Shown here: positions 16,666 to 37,528 of the stretch, piece after piece
Position numbering within the stretch: position 1 is the stretch's first letter
Layout of the letters: each line of letters starts with the position of its first letter
From: a virus
Lineage: Duplodnaviria; Heunggongvirae; Uroviricota; Caudoviricetes
Strand: one strand, 5' to 3'
DNA length: 38,440 nucleotides
IMG/VR virus record: IMGVR_UViG_2663762939_000006
Notes under the pieces: model-generated
What the model was told of the DNA's origin: nothing
The model's input: the letters and a program-made list of their open reading frames with translations, nothing else
Database searches by the model: none
Program-made: the position numbers and the translations under genes

Positions 16666-17004
16666 TCACACCCCGCGCAGGATACGAATGACGTCGCCTT
16701 CACCCCCGGCTTCATCAAGTGCAATACCACAGGATTTACCGTCGCCGGACTGCGGCACGGCTCTGGCCTGAGCATCTGACTGAACAGCCACACCACGGCT
16801 GACAGCGGCCCCGGCCTCGACAGCAATAATGCCCAGAACGCTCACCGGCGTGCTGTCGCCGGTAACAGCATCCACTTCGGCAACCCCGAGCGCTGCGGCA
16901 CCGGCTTTACAGGGGGTATTATCTGCCCCGACAAAACGCTGCTGTGCCAGTGCTGCCCCTGCCGTTACGGTTGTGATCAGAATGACCTGCTGAGTGGTTC
17001 CCAT
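16666..17004 (-). CDS. small Ala/Gly/Val-rich virion protein (Mu gp35-like position)
   Basis: ATG at 17002-17004 with strong SD AAGGAG; directly after major head gene. Confidence 0.5.
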   Translation of the reverse strand: MGTTQQVILITTVTAGAALAQQRFVGADNTPCKAGAAALGVAEVDAVTGDSTPVSVLGIIAVEAGAAVSRGVAVQSDAQARAVPQSGDGKSCGIALDEAGGEGDVIRILRGV

Positions 17005-26630: not shown

Positions 26631-27374
26631 ATGACGCAGACACTGAATCCGGTCATCACTGTCACCGTGTCCGGTCCTGTGGGCAGCGGTAAAAGTTACA
26701 TATTGGCGCGGATAGAGGAAGTGGTGAAACAGGAATTCGGGGGCAGCGTCATTGTCGATGCTGCAGACGTAGATGATGAGCGGCGTATGAGTGGCGATGA
26801 TCTGACGACCTGGCAGAAGCCACGGGGTGGCACAGTGATCAGGCTGGAGGAATACACGGGACAGGGCCTGTTGTCATACGGCGAGGAGCGTATCTGTCGG
26901 ACGAATGAGCTGCTGGATGTTATATGCCCCACGGGCCGGCAACCCTGGATACTGCCCGATGCACTGCATGCCACCATTGCGGCACTGATGACAGTTTACG
27001 ATCAGGAGCTGCTCATGAAGGAGCTACGTAAACTCACCGGTCAGCCAACAGAATGTTTTTCTGCCCCGAAGTACGGGAAACAGGAACACATCCCGGTGAA
27101 CACGCTCCCCGTTAACCAGCCTCCCCGGTTCTTCGACGAATACATTCTGACACCGGAAAATAAAGCTGAGCACGAAGAGATCAAAGCGGCGTTGTTCCGG
27201 GAAATCAGGAAGATTGCTGAAATGCAACTGGGGGGCGGGCTGGACAGAGTGATGGCGAGAGGAGAATGGGAGTCGCTGTTTGAAAGAGTTTCCCCGGAAT
27301 TACTTCCCCTCGCACTGGCTATCGGGATTATGCAGACAGCGGATAAACCTCACTTACGTTCATTAAACACGTAA
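26631..27374 (+). CDS. P-loop NTPase (Walker A GPVGSGKS at residues 15-22), possibly small kinase-like; function unknown
   Basis: ATG 26631 with SD GAGGAG; divergent from the late operon; N-terminal Walker A then VIVDAAD. Confidence 0.6.
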   Translation: MTQTLNPVITVTVSGPVGSGKSYILARIEEVVKQEFGGSVIVDAADVDDERRMSGDDLTTWQKPRGGTVIRLEEYTGQGLLSYGEERICRTNELLDVICPTGRQPWILPDALHATIAALMTVYDQELLMKELRKLTGQPTECFSAPKYGKQEHIPVNTLPVNQPPRFFDEYILTPENKAEHEEIKAALFREIRKIAEMQLGGGLDRVMARGEWESLFERVSPELLPLALAIGIMQTADKPHLRSLNT

Positions 27375-27754
27375 CGCATAATCCGGGATACGCATTCAGC
27401 GATGACTGCATTTTCACCGGTTTTTACTGCATCCAGAAGTGACTCTTTAAATGGTGCGGGCCGGGGCTGCAGAAGGGTCGGCGTGGCATTGAGCAGACGG
27501 AGCGTTTTTTCCGTGAGGACGACATCAGCCGCTCCCACAGCCAGCAACTGAGAGTAACGAATATAGCTGTTATCCCGAAGCCATATCAGCGTATCAATAA
27601 AATACCGGCACTTTTTCTGGTCGTGATCAACCTGGTCCGGGATATCGAAAAAACCAGAATAAATCAAAACCTGAGGTGCCGGATGCGTGTTCAGTAATCG
27701 GCAGAATATTTTGCCGGTGAGTGCATAAAAATCATCATTTAAGGAGTGCATCAT
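27350..27754 (-). CDS. hypothetical protein (134 aa)
   Basis: 134-codon open frame unlikely by chance; start ATG shares the palindromic TCATGA with the plus-strand gene; weak SD. Confidence 0.4.
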   Translation of the reverse strand: MMHSLNDDFYALTGKIFCRLLNTHPAPQVLIYSGFFDIPDQVDHDQKKCRYFIDTLIWLRDNSYIRYSQLLAVGAADVVLTEKTLRLLNATPTLLQPRPAPFKESLLDAVKTGENAVIAECVSRIMRYVFNERK

Positions 27755-27968
27755 GAATCCCCGATTAACGTTAACAGAACATCAGCGCCGTGCTGAAGCA
27801 GTGAACAATGTTCTGGAAGATATTATCCGGTTACATCGCGGAGAACTGAGTGTCTGTCGTGCCGCTTTTCATTTTCAGGGAATACAAAAGCAGTTTGATA
27901 CTTCTGTTTTTGCAGAAGGTATTACTTATGCCCTGGACCGGATAAGGTCAGAAAATCGCCCCGGATAA
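27753..27968 (+). CDS. hypothetical small protein (71 aa)
   Basis: ATG 27753 preceded by strong SD AAGGAG at 27741-27746. Confidence 0.6.
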   Translation: MNPRLTLTEHQRRAEAVNNVLEDIIRLHRGELSVCRAAFHFQGIQKQFDTSVFAEGITYALDRIRSENRPG

Positions 27969-28157
27969 TCCCTAAACCACATTAACAGAAATCCCACTAT
28001 CCCTGCCGCATCATGAAAGAACGACCAGCCCGGAACCCGAAATCCGGGCTGGCCATCGTCCCACAGGAATGCACTGTGAGCCGACCGAGGTTCAGTCAGT
28101 CTCGCGAGACCAGACTAGCCTGCCATATTTTTAGTAATTGTAAAAGGCTTACAGATT

Positions 28158-28922
28158 ATGAAAATGCAGACATTACCCATCGTTCCATGGATTGGTGGCA
28201 AACGCCGCCTTGCAAAACACATTCTGCCGCTGTTTCCGGCGCATGAATGTTATGTGGAGCCGTTTTGTGGGGCAGCAGCGCTCTATTTTCTTAAGACACC
28301 CGGCAAGATCGAAGTCATTAATGATATCAACGGTGAACTGGTGAATCTGTACCGGGTGGTAAAGCATCACCTGGAAGAATTTGTCCGCCAGTTCAAATGG
28401 GCGCTGGTCAGCCGTCAGATCTACAAATGGCTGCAGATCACCCCGGAAGAAACACTGACGGATATCCAGCGTGCGGCACGGTTCTACTACCTTCAGAAGC
28501 AGGCGTTTGGCGGCAAGGTGGCAGAGCACAGCTTCGGTACCTCCACCACATCCCCGCCACGCTTCAACCTGCTGCGTATTGAAGAAGAACTGTCAACAGC
28601 ACACCTGCGGCTTTCCAGAACAGTCATAGAACACATGGACTGGCAACAGTGCATTGAGCGTTATGATCGTCCGCACACACTGTTCTACTGCGACCCACCG
28701 TACCTGGGTACGGAAGGCTATGGTGTGGATTTTCCTGAAGGGAACTACTCGCGGCTGGCAGAGCTGGCCCGGTGCATCAGAGGAAAAATGATAATTTCGG
28801 TGAACGATATCCCACAGATGCGCGAGGTGTTCACTGGACTGAACATACAGACAGTGAACATCAACTACAGTCTGGCGGGGAAATCCACGCCGCGCCGTGA
28901 ACTGGTAATCTGCAACTTCTGA
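28158..28922 (+). CDS. DNA N6-adenine methyltransferase (Dam-like, D12 class)
   Basis: N-terminal ..KRRLAKHILPLFPAHECYVEPFCGAAALYF.. and catalytic DPPY motif (YCDPPYLGTEGYG). Confidence 0.85.
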   Translation: MKMQTLPIVPWIGGKRRLAKHILPLFPAHECYVEPFCGAAALYFLKTPGKIEVINDINGELVNLYRVVKHHLEEFVRQFKWALVSRQIYKWLQITPEETLTDIQRAARFYYLQKQAFGGKVAEHSFGTSTTSPPRFNLLRIEEELSTAHLRLSRTVIEHMDWQQCIERYDRPHTLFYCDPPYLGTEGYGVDFPEGNYSRLAELARCIRGKMIISVNDIPQMREVFTGLNIQTVNINYSLAGKSTPRRELVICNF

Positions 28923-29038: not shown

Positions 29039-29377
29039 TCAGCCTGCGAGTTTGCTTGGTTTGGGTTGAATGAAGACTTTGCCGACCTCAAGAATTGCCC
29101 TCCGTTGTTCGGGGCTCATTTCGTCGAATGCATCCATTAACTCTTTCTTTTCTTGTGACACATAAGGTGCAACAACAGGCTGACTCCGCACCCCAGTAAC
29201 TACATACAAAATATCTACACCGATTTCTGATAGTGCAGATAACTGCACTGCAGTAGGAGAAGTGCGATCTTTTTCCCAATCAATGAAAGTTCTCTTTGCC
29301 ACACCTATAGCATCAGCCAACCCTTGCTGTGTAAGAGATAGACGCTCTCTTTCTTCTTTAATACGTAACCCGATCAT
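29039..29377 (-). CDS. XRE-family HTH repressor (immunity repressor candidate); start ambiguous (29377, 29452/29455 or 29530)
   Basis: MIGLRIKEERERLSLTQQGLADAIGVAKRTFIDWEKDRTSP is a classic XRE helix-turn-helix; divergent from the Ner-like gene. Confidence 0.7.
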   Translation of the reverse strand: MIGLRIKEERERLSLTQQGLADAIGVAKRTFIDWEKDRTSPTAVQLSALSEIGVDILYVVTGVRSQPVVAPYVSQEKKELMDAFDEMSPEQRRAILEVGKVFIQPKPSKLAG

Positions 29378-29401
29378 GTGAGTTTTTCTGCACTCTTTAA
29401 G

Positions 29402-29430
29402 TTGACTGGTGAGGTAATCTGCACCATAAT
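29402..29430 (+). promoter_or_regulatory. sigma70-type early promoter (-35 TTGACT, 17-bp spacer, -10 CATAAT) with overlapping imperfect palindrome
   Basis: Near-consensus hexamers 48 bp upstream of the Ner-like ATG; TGGTGAG-N6-TGCACCA palindrome spans the spacer. Confidence 0.6.
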
Positions 29431-29477
29431 CTATCACACATAAGGCAAACATCATTGCATCAACAAAGGAGACAACG

Positions 29478-29666
29478 ATGACTGCAGAACAAGTCAAAGC
29501 TCTCTTCCGCCAGCGCGGGATCACTTTCACCCGCTGGGCAGAAGAAAACGGCTACAACCGCAATGAGGTATACCGCGTTCTCAATGGGCAGACCAAAGCC
29601 CGTTACGGTAAATCCCATGAAATCGCCGTGAAGTTGGGGCTGAAATCAACAGCTCAGGCAGCCTGA
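29478..29666 (+). CDS. ner: Ner/Nlp-like small DNA-binding regulator
   Basis: SD AAAGGAGA then ATG 29478; ..GYNRNEVYRVLNGQTKARYGKSHEIAVKLGL aligns with Mu Ner ..GYAPTTLANALERHWPKGEQIIANAL as recalled. Confidence 0.6.
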   Translation: MTAEQVKALFRQRGITFTRWAEENGYNRNEVYRVLNGQTKARYGKSHEIAVKLGLKSTAQAA

Positions 29667-34198: not shown

Positions 34199-34729
34199 AT
34201 GGCAAAAAGTACAAAAGGGGCAAAACGTATCAAAGCCGCAGCAGCACTCTGGGTGCCGGGGACACGCGAAGAGGTCATTGAGGGAATCAGACTGCTTGGT
34301 GACGCGCAACGTGAACTGGTCAGGGCTGAAACAGAAATGAATGACACCATTGGCGACATCACCGCACGTTATGCCCCGCTCACCGAGAGCCTGAAAAAAC
34401 GCATGGCCGAACTGCAGTCCGGTATTCAGACATGGTGTGAGGCACACCGTAATGAACTGACCGGCAACGGGAAGGTGAAGTTCGCTAACCTCACCACCGG
34501 CGAGGTGCAGTGGCGAAACCGTCCGCCATCAGTCAGTATCCGTGGGGCGGATAATGTTATTGAATTACTGAGACGTCTGGGGCTTGAGCGCTTTATCCGT
34601 GTAAAGGAGGAAATAAATAAAGACGCCATCCTGAATGAAAAGGACGCCGTGAAAAATATTCCCGGTATTACCATAAAAAGTGATATTGAGGATTTTTCAA
34701 TAATTCCTTTTGAGCAGAATGTGCAGTAA
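34199..34729 (+). CDS. gam: Gam-like host-nuclease inhibitor (DNA-end binding)
   Basis: SD AGGAGG; 176 aa; N-terminal Lys-rich ..RIKAAAALWVPGTREEV.. then coiled-coil, as in Mu Gam. Confidence 0.7.
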   Translation: MAKSTKGAKRIKAAAALWVPGTREEVIEGIRLLGDAQRELVRAETEMNDTIGDITARYAPLTESLKKRMAELQSGIQTWCEAHRNELTGNGKVKFANLTTGEVQWRNRPPSVSIRGADNVIELLRRLGLERFIRVKEEINKDAILNEKDAVKNIPGITIKSDIEDFSIIPFEQNVQ

Positions 34730-36511: not shown

Positions 36512-36716
36512 ATCTGTTGTATGTGCCCTGTTCTGGTATTGTTTTGTCGGTTGGTGTACTGCTGAACTGCACCGCCGTTCAGGGTTTTATTCACGTTACA
36601 GTGGTGCTGGCTACTGGATTAGCTGGTCGGTGATGTTCCTGTGCTGGCCTGTGGCGCTTCCTTTATATGTCGATTATATCGGTGGCGCAGGTAAAAGGAG
36701 CAACGATGATGACTAA
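36501..36716 (+). CDS. small membrane protein (two predicted TM helices)
   Basis: ATG 36501 overlaps upstream stop; hydrophobic segments VVCALFWYCFVGW and WSVMFLCWPVALPLYV. Confidence 0.45.
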   Translation: MTAESVVCALFWYCFVGWCTAELHRRSGFYSRYSGAGYWISWSVMFLCWPVALPLYVDYIGGAGKRSNDDD

Positions 36717-37158
36717 ACAACGTCTTATCCAGCTCATTCATATTGCCCGTAATGAACTGGGTATGGATGAAGACACCTACCGCCAGATGTTACAGGGGCT
36801 GACCGGTAAAGCCTCAACCAAAGGAATGGATACCACACAACTAAACTGCGTGCTGGAATCCATGAAAAGGAAAGGCTTTCGCGTTAAGCCTGCCGGAAAA
36901 GCCAGCTCCGGTTTACCGCTGGATAACCATCCGCAGTCCAGGAAAATCCGTGCGCTATGGCTTGAAATGGCTGCTGCCGGCATTGTTCGTGACCGTTCAG
37001 AAAATGCATTAGCGCGGTGGATCAAGCGGGAAACGGGCATCAGCGCCCTGCGCTGGCTCAGTACTGAACAGGCAAGCAGTGTTATTGAGAAACTGAAGAA
37101 GTGGCAGCGCAGAGCTGCGGGAGTCAAACATGAGCGACCTGAATCAGTTTCGAAGTAA
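36706..37158 (+). CDS. gemA: GemA-like regulatory protein
   Basis: SD AAAAGGAG, ATG 36706; ..LIQLIHIARNELGMDEDTYRQMLQGLTGKAS.. resembles the Mu GemA family. Confidence 0.6.
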   Translation: MMTKQRLIQLIHIARNELGMDEDTYRQMLQGLTGKASTKGMDTTQLNCVLESMKRKGFRVKPAGKASSGLPLDNHPQSRKIRALWLEMAAAGIVRDRSENALARWIKRETGISALRWLSTEQASSVIEKLKKWQRRAAGVKHERPESVSK

Positions 37159-37528
37159 AGGGCCGGAACTCCTGGTGGAGCTGGCACAGCATACCTCTGA
37201 GACCGTTCGCGAGATTATTGATATTGAGCCCGCAATTGCCGACCAGATTGGTCAGGCCGTCGCGAACCGAATGATGCAGGTCTGGGGCGGGCAAAATGTT
37301 TATTTCCCGATGGGCATGGTATGGAAGGTCAGTCAGCGCGACCGGGAAATCTTCAGGGAGTTTAACGGACGCAACCACCACGAACTGGCCCGCAAGTTTG
37401 GTGTTTCGCTTCAGTGGGTCTACAGCGTGGTTAAGCGGGTCAGAAAAGAAGAACTGGATCGGATGCAGGGCAGGTTGTTTGATGAAGATCTGCCAGAGGA
37501 GACGAAAGACGTTAACAAATCCAGATAA
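37130..37528 (+). CDS. mor: Mor/C-family transcription activator
   Basis: 132 aa; C-terminal HTH ..NHHELARKFGVSLQWVYSVVKRVRKEE.. typical of the Mor/C family; last gene of the early operon as in Mu. Confidence 0.7.
   Translation: MSDLNQFRSKGPELLVELAQHTSETVREIIDIEPAIADQIGQAVANRMMQVWGGQNVYFPMGMVWKVSQRDREIFREFNGRNHHELARKFGVSLQWVYSVVKRVRKEELDRMQGRLFDEDLPEETKDVNKSR

What the first reader, a model, noticed from the sequence alone, without database searches (positions are those of the whole stretch)
27350..27968. Face-to-face gene pair sharing a palindromic TCATGA start
The 71-aa plus gene (ATG 27753, strong SD) and the 134-aa minus ORF (ATG 27752-27754) start on the same palindrome, so each SD lies inside the other's first codons. 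The 134-aa ORF also overlaps the P-loop gene 3' end by 25 nt (27350-27374). Such mutual occlusion suggests either an either/or expression switch or that only one of the two is real.
Basis: seen in the sequence. Interest (0 to 1): 0.5.

Follow-up and report, generated by a model that had tools for sequence, protein, structure and literature searches.

The report
Conserved head-to-head phage gene pair
Two real, conserved phage accessory genes (a 134-aa winged-helix protein and a 71-aa three-helix protein) are read in opposite directions from one shared CATG with no DNA between them; this layout recurs in Mu-like and P2-like prophages, but what the pair does and whether it acts as an expression switch are untested.

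Summary
The + gene starts at ATG 27753. The - ORF starts at the complement of 27752-27754, or at a second in-frame ATG at 27749-27751. Each ribosome-binding site lies in the other gene's first codons. [quoted passage not shown]

"Only one is real" is rejected. The 134-aa ORF belongs to a large phage family (phrog_2266; 198 clusters at E<=1e-3). Its predicted structure (pLDDT 92) is a winged helix plus two C-terminal helices. The 71-aa protein (phrog_4490) folds as a three-helix bundle (pLDDT 91).

The same junction, a shared CATG with a 63-90 aa partner, recurs in six sampled lineages. They include three Mu-like prophage types, many P2-like phages at the gpA-gpQ defence hotspot, and an insertion between tail genes. 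In the P2-like clade both genes are under purifying selection (pN/pS 0.15 and 0.32).

The partners fall into at least two sequence families with no detectable similarity. The winged-helix family is mostly acidic and matches no Pfam, NCBIfam or PADLOC model.

Best reading: a mobile two-gene accessory cassette whose two mRNAs must be complementary at their 5' ends, so expression is probably reciprocal. That step is inferred. No promoter or transcript was mapped, and the function is unknown.

The parts
27350..27754 (-). 134-aa winged-helix protein gene (phrog_2266 family). The alternative start ATG#2 would give 27350-27751.
27753..27968 (+). 71-aa partner gene (phrog_4490), predicted three-helix bundle
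   Evidence: ORF. phrog_4490 E 1.6e-52. Serratia homologue 30% identical, E 6e-11, in the same position. AF2 pLDDT 91, three helices. Annotated as WP_001069609.1.
27751..27756 (.). TCATGA junction (CATG core 27752-27755) holding both start codons
   Evidence: The same CATG junction is seen in Serratia, L024 and L025, 44 P2-like loci and L021, and L073/L074.
27740..27746 (+). Shine-Dalgarno TAAGGAG of the 71-aa gene, lying in codons 3-5 of the 134-aa gene
   Evidence: Equivalent GGAGG, AGGAG or GAGG elements sit at this position in the other lineages.
27759..27762 (-). Weak SD-like GGGG of the 134-aa gene, lying in codons 3-4 of the 71-aa gene
   Evidence: GGGA, GGTGA, AGGGA or GGGAGG elements are at a similar distance in the other lineages.
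27350..27374 (.). 25-nt convergent 3' overlap between the 134-aa gene and the P-loop gene
   Evidence: The same tail-to-tail overlap is kept in Serratia (37 nt) and in L025 (4 nt).
26631..27374 (+). 247-aa P-loop protein gene (phrog_3787). It is a modular, variable neighbour, not part of the conserved pair.
   Evidence: phrog_3787 E 3.8e-164. N-terminal residues 1-74 are shared with the L025 258-aa protein. C-terminal residues 182-233 are shared with the Serratia 89-aa protein.
28025..28052 (-). Perfect 10-bp stem hairpin with a U-rich tail on the minus strand only. It is terminator-like and sits upstream of the pair in the sense of the winged-helix gene.
   Evidence: I19. The Serratia equivalent has a 14-bp stem plus T6 in the same orientation, directly beyond the partner gene's stop. 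In variant L011 it follows a second winged-helix paralogue.

Best explanation
The window is a BcepMu-like transposable prophage of E. coli. The two ORFs are both genuine genes and form a conserved, mobile two-gene accessory cassette. One gene encodes a ~125-150 aa, mostly acidic winged-helix protein (phrog_2266). The other encodes a 63-90 aa helical partner that has been found only next to the winged-helix gene. They are arranged head to head with no intergenic DNA, so both start codons sit on one CATG.

Shown here: both genes are real, and the junction is conserved across Mu-like and P2-like phages and a tail-gene insertion. Each gene's ribosome-binding site is encoded in the first 3-5 codons of the other. 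The flanking genes vary. The winged-helix gene usually stands alone against the orientation of its neighbours, while the small gene usually runs with them.

Inferred: because nothing lies between the starts, each promoter and 5' leader must lie inside or beyond the partner's coding sequence. The two mRNAs would then be complementary over both translation-initiation regions. Expression is therefore expected to be reciprocal, through transcriptional interference and antisense occlusion. The small gene would be switched on with the surrounding operon, and the winged-helix gene would be expressed autonomously.

The small protein most likely acts with or against the winged-helix protein, rather than the pair being a DNA-binding repressor/Cro pair. 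Which gene is on in the lysogen, and the cellular function, are not determined.
For: Identity of the element: 100% match to E. coli ABU 83972 and 95.7% to phage PhiKM (Bcepmuvirus). The pair is present in 499 of 5426 complete E. coli genomes.

Both genes are real:
- PHROG hits.
- 198 family clusters aligning from the N-terminus.
- AF2 pLDDT 92 and 91.
- Serratia homologues at 53% and 30% identity in the same layout.
- P2-like clade pN/pS of 0.15 and 0.32, with third-position excess of variable sites ([75,54,135] and [44,34,60]).

The CATG junction is conserved in six lineages: E. coli, Serratia, the Salmonella-type L025, P2-like phages (ST147-VIM1phi7.1 gp04/05, Midge 045/046, FSL SP-004 gp39/40, and 44 IMG/VR loci), L021, and L073/74.

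The partner families show no detectable similarity to each other (hhalign probability 0.09%; three different PHROGs).

Flanks vary: P-loop, 89-aa or 258-aa genes; RT, Fic, DinI, a 572-aa ORF that looks DUF262-like by eye (not scanned against Pfam), or gene A. The P2-like copies lie in the published gpA-gpQ hotspot (PMC9122126).

Embedded signals:
- SDs in each other's codons.
- In the P2-like clade, synonymous diversity falls in winged-helix codons 1-8 (0.34 against 0.53 overall, P~0.03) and codons 41-48 (0.147; 0 of 20000 random sets as low). The second dip lies next to a sigma-70-like match on the partner's strand.
- GC falls to 0.43 over the junction.
- A terminator-like hairpin in the winged-helix sense lies just upstream of the pair in E. 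coli and Serratia.

Against a classic DNA-binding role: median pI of the family is 5.1 and 85% of members are below 6.
Against: No transcription start, promoter or translation evidence exists for either gene. The consensus promoter scans gave no more hits than shuffled sequence and found no element conserved across lineages.

The synonymous-site dips come from one clade and could reflect recombination tracts or mRNA-structure constraints.

Five sampled family members lack a CATG partner (L020, L075, L076, P0086, and the second paralogue in L011), as do two later ones (L078, L079) judged from their gene tables only. The partner is therefore not obligatory.

In FSL SP-004 and about 15 other P2-like loci the next ORF downstream of the winged-helix gene is co-directional, so it is not always an antisense island.

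In four Mu-like lineages the winged-helix gene is co-oriented with the lysis/late operon, which allows a different timing.

Confidence: 0.5

Rival explanations
1. Compaction without regulation. Both genes are real and are expressed together, for example as a protein pair that works as a complex. The shared CATG is only the end point of squeezing out intergenic DNA in a size-limited phage genome. The overlap has no switching role.
For: Phage genomes are compact, and P2-like hotspots are size-limited (PMC9122126). The partner is found only beside the winged-helix gene. No promoter or operator pattern is conserved across lineages. Both proteins give confident fold predictions.
Against: Divergent promoters normally need intergenic DNA. 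Here both leaders must cross the other gene's start, which makes neutrality unlikely. The exact junction is kept with partner families that show no detectable similarity. Synonymous variation is reduced at the 5' end of the winged-helix gene.
Confidence: 0.3
2. Repressor/Cro-type genetic switch. The winged-helix protein is a DNA-binding autoregulator that binds at the junction and controls the small gene and flanking cargo. The small protein is its antagonist or a second regulator.
For: The fold is a winged helix, closest to Z-alpha, MarR, Rrf2 and IclR-type domains. The layout is divergent as in phage immunity regions. The cassette sits at the border of variable or defence cargo. A curator annotated the phage Midge homologue as 'putative transcriptional regulator'.
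Against: The family is acidic: median pI 5.1, and only 1.6% of members are above pI 8. The conserved columns listed for the alignment include only one basic residue, the nearly invariant K83. There is no Pfam or NCBIfam HTH model hit. No repeated operator-like sequence was found beyond CATG itself. The small protein is a plain three-helix bundle with no informative structural neighbour.
Confidence: 0.12
3. Only the 71-aa + gene is real, and the 134-aa minus ORF is a chance or shadow ORF.
For: In a single sequence the pattern is not rare: 7 of 147 CATG sites in the window give long ORFs both ways. The minus ORF has only a weak SD. Phage PhiKM's depositors did not annotate it.
Against: phrog_2266 E 6e-44. 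198 homologous clusters aligning end to end. pN/pS of 0.15 with third-position excess in the P2-like clade. AF2 pLDDT 92. The gene occurs without any partner in other phages.
Confidence: 0.02
4. The winged-helix protein is the late-gene activator of the Mu-like phage (the analogue of Mu C), placed upstream of and co-oriented with the lysis operon.
For: In E. coli, Serratia, L025 and L078 the gene lies upstream of and in the same orientation as the holin-SLT cassette. Its size of about 140 aa resembles Mu C (my own knowledge of Mu).
Against: There is no match to the Mor/C family model, while the window carries its own Mor-family gene at 37130-37528 (PF08765, E 1e-43). The same family occurs in P2-like hotspots and inside tail operons in antisense orientation. 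The family is acidic.
Confidence: 0.04

Closest known systems
IS10/Tn10 RNA-IN / RNA-OUT (pIN/pOUT) and type I antisense pairs such as symE/SymR (from my own knowledge)
   Same: Two oppositely directed transcripts whose 5' ends are complementary across an SD and start codon, so one blocks translation of the other. That geometry is forced here because there is no intergenic DNA.
   Different: In those systems one RNA is non-coding. Here both strands encode conserved proteins, and both initiation regions would be covered. No transcript has been mapped here.
Face-to-face promoter switches of P2 (Pe/Pc) and 186 (pR/pL), which act by transcriptional interference (from my own knowledge)
   Same: Divergent genes of a temperate phage whose promoters fire towards each other, giving reciprocal expression.
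   Different: Those switches have an intergenic control region with operators, and DNA-binding repressors (C/Cox, CI/Apl). Here there is no intergenic DNA, no operator was found, and the larger protein is acidic with no HTH-family model hit. The prophage's own immunity region is elsewhere, at 29039-29666.
Excludon concept: divergent genes with long overlapping antisense 5' regions (from my own knowledge)
   Same: Oppositely oriented neighbouring genes whose expression is mutually exclusive through overlapping transcripts.
   Different: Excludons are defined from mapped long transcripts, and none is available here. This cassette is about 620 bp and mobile between phages.
Phage morons and hotspot cargo (lambda bor, HK97 gp15, P2 old/tin; the P2 gpA-gpQ hotspot, PMC9122126)
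   Same: Small accessory units inserted between core phage genes, often against the local gene orientation, in variable regions. The P2-like copies lie in the published gpA-gpQ hotspot.
   Different: No defence, exclusion or virulence activity is known or predicted, and PADLOC gives no hit. The cassette persists while the adjacent cargo changes, so it may be a border or regulatory module rather than cargo.
Winged-helix domains (Z-alpha, MarR, Rrf2, IclR type)
   Different: Sequence identity is 6-18%. There is no family-model hit. The position of helix 2 is a variable loop in the model. The protein carries a net acidic charge and has two extra C-terminal helices.

Membership tests
phrog_2266 (phage protein family of unknown function) | Significant full-length match to the family profile | tested here: met
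   E 6e-44, covering residues 2-133 against profile positions 1-142 of 144. Homologues from the other lineages hit the same family.
phrog_4490 (small partner protein, unknown function) | Significant full-length match to the family profile | tested here: met
   E 1.6e-52 over 71 of 71 positions. The Serratia partner gives E 1.6e-7.
Winged-helix DNA-binding transcription factors (MarR/Rrf2/IclR/PadR) | Winged-helix fold | tested here: met
Winged-helix DNA-binding transcription factors (MarR/Rrf2/IclR/PadR) | Match to a curated family model | tested here: not met
   No Pfam or NCBIfam hit for the window protein or for 61 family members. PDB sequence search gave nothing better than E 0.1 to a natural DNA-binding protein.
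Winged-helix DNA-binding transcription factors (MarR/Rrf2/IclR/PadR) | Basic DNA-contacting surface, and a cognate operator near the regulated promoter | tested here: not met
   Median pI 5.1, and 85% of members below 6. The conserved columns listed include only one basic residue, K83. No operator-like repeats were found at the junction. DNA binding itself was not tested.
Toxin-antitoxin systems (type II) | Co-directional bicistronic operon with a recognisable toxin or antitoxin domain | tested here: not met
   The genes are divergent. There are no TA domain hits in Pfam, NCBIfam or PADLOC. The larger gene occurs alone in other phages.
Known anti-phage defence systems (PADLOC-DB v2.0.0) | Match to a defence-protein model | tested here: not met
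   No hit at E<=0.1 for the winged-helix or type-B partner proteins. There were only marginal hits: PtuB at 0.015 for a P2-type partner, and mad8 at 0.005 for the P-loop neighbour. The library dates from 2023.
Mor/C late transcription activators of Mu-like phages | Match to PF08765 (Mor family) | tested here: not met
   No hit for the 134-aa protein. A separate gene at 37130-37528 matches PF08765 at E 1e-43.
LexA-controlled anti-repressors (186 Tum type) | SOS box upstream, and an anti-repressor family match | tested here: not met
   The only CTGT-N8-ACAG in the window is at 16853. There is no consensus LexA box and no family hit.
T7 gp5.5 / gp5.7 (suggested in the phage Midge annotation) | Profile similarity to T7 gp5.5 or gp5.7 | tested here: not met
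   hhalign of the family profile against T7 gp5.5 gave probability 0.1%, and against gp5.7 gave 0.8%. The templates were single sequences, so sensitivity was limited.
5'-overlapping antisense transcription units (IS10 pIN/pOUT-like, excludon-like) | Mapped transcripts whose 5' ends overlap, and reciprocal expression | not testable with these tools
   Only the geometry is shown: no intergenic DNA, and SDs inside each other's codons. No TSS or expression data were available.
Invertible DNA segment (Gin/Cin type) | Flanking inverted repeats, and both orientations present in the population | tested here: not met
   The best inverted repeat flanking the gene is 20 nt at 75% complementarity. The locus is collinear at >=95% identity across 492 E. 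coli genomes.

The most novel reading that the evidence does not exclude
The cassette is a self-contained toggle of a kind not yet described. Two protein-coding mRNAs are transcribed through each other's start codons, so only one can be translated at a time. One encodes a non-DNA-binding winged-helix effector and the other its dedicated antagonist. Temperate phages of unrelated types would place this toggle at the edge of variable or defence regions to couple an accessory activity to the lysogenic or lytic state. The architecture would have been kept, or re-created, with unrelated partner proteins.
Probability: 0.15. Interest if true: 0.75.

Novelty: new variant of a known kind. Interest (0 to 1): 0.48.

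Why it matters
Head-to-head gene overlaps are described as the least common orientation class in bacteria (my own knowledge; PMC3887535, only defines the classes and says most overlaps are unidirectional), and they are often dismissed as annotation errors. In this case both genes are demonstrably real. The exact start-on-start junction is kept across Mu-like and P2-like phages, and even with partner proteins that show no detectable similarity to one another. This suggests the geometry itself is selected.

If the predicted reciprocal expression is confirmed, the 620-bp unit would be a very compact natural toggle. It sits beside known anti-phage hotspots, it is present in about 9% of complete E. 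coli genomes (Mu-like version) and about 2% (P2-like version), and both of its proteins belong to families with no assigned function.

Tried and rejected
1. Searches for a known function gave nothing for either protein in Pfam, NCBIfam, PADLOC, PDB sequences, BFVD Foldseek (all E>0.04) or Rfam.

3. The T7 gp5.5/5.7 similarity suggested in the phage Midge record was not reproduced.

4. No SOS boxes were found near the pair.

5. Consensus sigma-70 and terminator scans of the window region gave counts at the level of shuffled sequence. My own scan across nine lineages found no promoter at a conserved distance.

6. The invertible-segment idea has no supporting repeats or orientation variants.

7. 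Within-clade dN/dS for the E. coli copies was uninformative, with only 5 distinct sequences at >=95% identity. The P2-like clade was used instead.

9. Some library scans failed or found nothing: the afdb50 library was unavailable, the genome-contig scan found no relative, the A2 alignment was too divergent for a locus scan, and the L025 protein found nothing in viral contigs.

10. Literature searches for the accession, or for divergent overlapping start codons in phages, found no description of this pair.

11. The Serratia homologue is named 'DUF2513 domain-containing' by UniRef, but no family member matched any such Pfam model at E<=0.01.
Full report
**What the window is.**
The 1.6 kb around the finding is 100% identical to the chromosome of E. 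coli ABU 83972 and other strains. It is 95.7% identical to Escherichia phage PhiKM, which is classified in Bcepmuvirus. The neighbourhood fits a Mu-like transposable prophage.
- A holin/SLT lysis cassette and structural genes run leftwards from ~26533.
- A repressor/Cro-like pair lies at 29039-29666.
- A rightward early operon carries a transposase, Gam, GemA and a Mor-family activator.

The finding lies in the short central region between the late operon and the repressor. The gene order there is P-loop gene (+), 134-aa ORF (-), 71-aa ORF (+), Dam methylase (+).

**Checking the observation.**
- The 71-aa gene starts at ATG 27753, with TAAGGAG six nt upstream.
- The minus ORF starts at the complement of 27752-27754, so CATG (27752-27755, inside TCATGA) carries both start codons.
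- The minus ORF overlaps the P-loop gene at 27350-27374.

Two details need adding.
- A second in-frame ATG follows directly (MMHSL...). The only SD-like element for the minus ORF, GGGG, lies 4 nt from ATG#1 and 7 nt from ATG#2. The true start may therefore be ATG#2, in which case the coding sequences abut with a 1-nt gap instead of overlapping.
- In one sequence the pattern is not statistically remarkable. Seven of the 147 CATG sites in this window give ORFs of >=60 and >=100 codons in the two directions, mostly internal ATGs and shadow ORFs. The case rests on comparative evidence.

**Both genes are real.**
The evidence for the 134-aa ORF:
- It matches phrog_2266 over its full length (E 6e-44), and the 71-aa ORF matches phrog_4490 (E 1.6e-52).
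- An exhaustive HMMER search with a four-sequence profile found 198 clusters at E<=1e-3. Almost all are proteins of 125-155 aa that align from residues 1-7 to the C-terminus.
- The alignment shows conserved motifs (N-I-x-x-F, F-P-x-P, W-L, G-Y-I, V-L-T-x-K-G-L). The N-termini coincide with the window protein's start. A much shorter, downstream-starting gene is therefore excluded.

The 71-aa protein has a narrower family. It is predicted with pLDDT 91 as a three-helix bundle, with no informative structural neighbours.

In a clade of P2-like phages with enough variation (38 and 35 distinct sequences), pN/pS is 0.15 for the winged-helix gene and 0.32 for its partner. Variable sites are concentrated at third codon positions. 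NCBI's pipeline annotates both genes. PhiKM's depositors missed the minus gene.

**The junction is conserved, which is the main new result.**
The same layout appears in six sampled lineages.
- Serratia BcepMu-like prophages have a 139-aa homologue (53% identity) and a 73-aa homologue (30% identity, E 6e-11). They meet at gaCATGATGacc, the same CATG-ATG arrangement. The 3' end of the larger gene again overlaps a convergent gene, by 37 nt.
- A third Mu-like type (L025; its partner protein is named Salmonella enterica by NCBI) has a ~33%-identical homologue meeting a 69-aa partner at tCATGg.
- P2-like phages carry a 143-aa homologue (~30% identity) and a 63-64 aa gene that meet at gCATGt. Examples are ST147-VIM1phi7.1 gp04/gp05, Midge 045/046, FSL SP-004 gp39/gp40 and 44 IMG/VR loci. 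The pair lies at the right genome end between gene A and cos/portal. That interval is the published gpA-gpQ anti-phage hotspot (PMC9122126).
- A metagenomic contig (L021) has the same junction with a 74-aa ORF.
- A pair inserted between tail genes (L073/74) has a 90-aa partner.

The window-type pair is present in 499 of 5426 complete E. coli genomes. The P2-like pair is present in 94.

Seven other sampled family members show no partner: L020, L075, L076, P0086, a second paralogue in L011, L078 and L079. For the last two this rests on the called-gene tables only; their junction sequences were not read. The partner-bearing members are among those closest to the window protein.

The partners belong to three PHROGs (4490, 25421, 2454).
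- The Mu-type and tail-insert partners share a recognisable motif (AE[GSA][IL][TV][YFW][AT]L).
- The P2-type partners show no detectable similarity to them (hhalign probability 0.09%).
- The cause is either extreme divergence or independent recruitment.

**Context.**
The flanks change while the pair stays.
- Next to the winged-helix gene one finds a 247-aa P-loop protein, an 89-aa protein equal to its C-terminal part, or a 258-aa protein sharing only its N-terminal P-loop part.
- In P2-like phages the neighbour can be a reverse transcriptase with an HTH gene, Fic, DinI, a 572-aa ORF that looks DUF262-like by eye (not scanned), other ORFs, or gene A directly.
- In most contexts the winged-helix gene stands alone against the orientation of both neighbours, while the small gene runs with them.
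- Exceptions exist, such as FSL SP-004, where Fic follows co-directionally.
- In four Mu-like lineages the winged-helix gene is co-oriented with the lysis operon.

**How it probably works.**
Shown:
- There is no DNA between the starts.
- Each SD is encoded in the other gene's codons 2-5. The small gene's SD is strong in every lineage (TAAGGAG, GGAGG, AGGAG, GAGG). The winged-helix gene's SD is weaker (GGGG, GGGA, GGTGA, AGGGA).

Inferred:
- Each promoter and leader must lie within or beyond the partner's ORF.
- The two mRNAs would therefore be complementary across both initiation regions.
- Convergent transcription and antisense pairing should then make expression reciprocal.

Indirect support:
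- In the P2-like clade, synonymous diversity falls in winged-helix codons 1-8 (0.34 against 0.53 overall, P about 0.03).
- It falls sharply at codons 41-48 (0.147; none of 20000 random codon sets was as low). This dip lies next to a sigma-70-like TAGTCA-16-TAAATT on the partner's strand, 95 nt upstream of the partner's ATG in three divergent loci.
- GC dips to 0.43 over the junction.
- A terminator-like hairpin oriented in the winged-helix sense lies just upstream of the pair in both E. coli (28025-28052) and Serratia, with unrelated sequences. It would insulate the winged-helix gene from incoming transcription.

None of this maps a transcript. Consensus scans were at background level. Which gene is on in the lysogen is unknown.

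**What the proteins do.**
This is unknown. The winged-helix family is acidic: median pI is 5.1, 85% of members are below 6, and 1.6% are above 8. The window copy is atypical at 7.7. The conserved columns listed for the alignment include only one basic residue, K83, and no HTH family model matches. I therefore favour a protein-binding role over a classic repressor.

The partner occurs only beside the winged-helix gene, while that gene also occurs alone. This suggests the partner modulates or antagonises it. A toxin-antitoxin reading is unlikely for the same reason, and because no toxin or antitoxin domains were found. A late-activator role is unlikely because the prophage has its own Mor gene, and because the family occurs in P2-like hotspots and tail operons.

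**Comparison with known systems, and novelty.**
The nearest analogues for the geometry (from my own knowledge) are IS10 RNA-IN/RNA-OUT, type I antisense pairs, the face-to-face promoter switches of P2 and 186, and excludons. The cassette differs from all of them in three ways. Both strands encode conserved proteins. There is no intergenic control region. The unit moves between unrelated phages.

As a genomic object it resembles a moron or hotspot border element. I found no description of this pair in the searched literature. I rate it a new variant of a known kind. Interest is moderate at 0.48: the architecture and its conservation are unusual and easy to test, but mechanism and function are still inferred.

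Noticed in passing
L011 3157-3537 (+) (IMGVR_UViG_2737471845_000031, a variant of the same E. coli prophage): A second phrog_2266 winged-helix paralogue (126 aa, E 9.6e-36) is inserted between Dam and the hairpin. It has the same orientation as the first copy and no small partner. In this variant the hairpin sits right after it, like its terminator.
   Followed up: partly
window 28025-28052: Perfect 10-bp stem hairpin (CCAGCCCGGA...TCCGGGCTGG) with a U-rich tail on the minus strand only, although the flanking annotated genes (71-aa gene, Dam) are on the + strand. Serratia has an unrelated but stronger terminator at the same place and in the same orientation (L003 4737-4770).
   Followed up: partly
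window 27402-27416 and 28159-28173: 15-nt inverted repeat with 14 of 15 positions complementary. The second arm covers the Dam start codon (ATG 28158). On a read-through + transcript the first arm could pair with the Dam initiation region. By my own rough estimate about 0.07 such pairs are expected in 1.8 kb. Conservation in relatives was not checked.
   Followed up: no
window 26631-27374: The P-loop protein is modular. Residues 1-74 (Walker A region) are 54% identical to the N-terminus of a 258-aa protein at the same position in L025. Residues 182-233 are 48% identical to a stand-alone 89-aa Serratia protein. Among isolated phages it occurs only in PhiKM.
   Followed up: partly
window 28013-28246 (+): A 77-aa ORF spans the hairpin and overlaps the Dam start. 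It has no PHROG or Pfam hit and is not annotated by NCBI, so it is probably not a gene. PhiKM's Dam is annotated 90 nt longer (855 nt) than the 765-nt ORF used here.
   Followed up: no
window 37130-37528 (+), 36667-37158 (+), 34199-34729 (+): Mor-family transcription activator (PF08765, E 1e-43), GemA and Gam homologues lie in the rightward early operon. This confirms a Mu-type regulatory cascade, with early and late operons diverging from the central region.
   Followed up: yes
L078 577-1476 (+) and 1739-2182 (+): In another Mu-like prophage, a lone winged-helix family member sits directly upstream of the holin in the same orientation. It is preceded by an AbiJ-like abortive-infection protein (PF18863/PF14355). 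This is another link between the family and defence cargo.
   Followed up: no
L026 / L024 3056-4516 (-): In several P2-like loci the gene convergent with the winged-helix gene is a 316-aa reverse transcriptase (weak RVT_1 hit) followed by a small HTH gene. It may be a retron-like or DRT-like defence unit.
   Followed up: no
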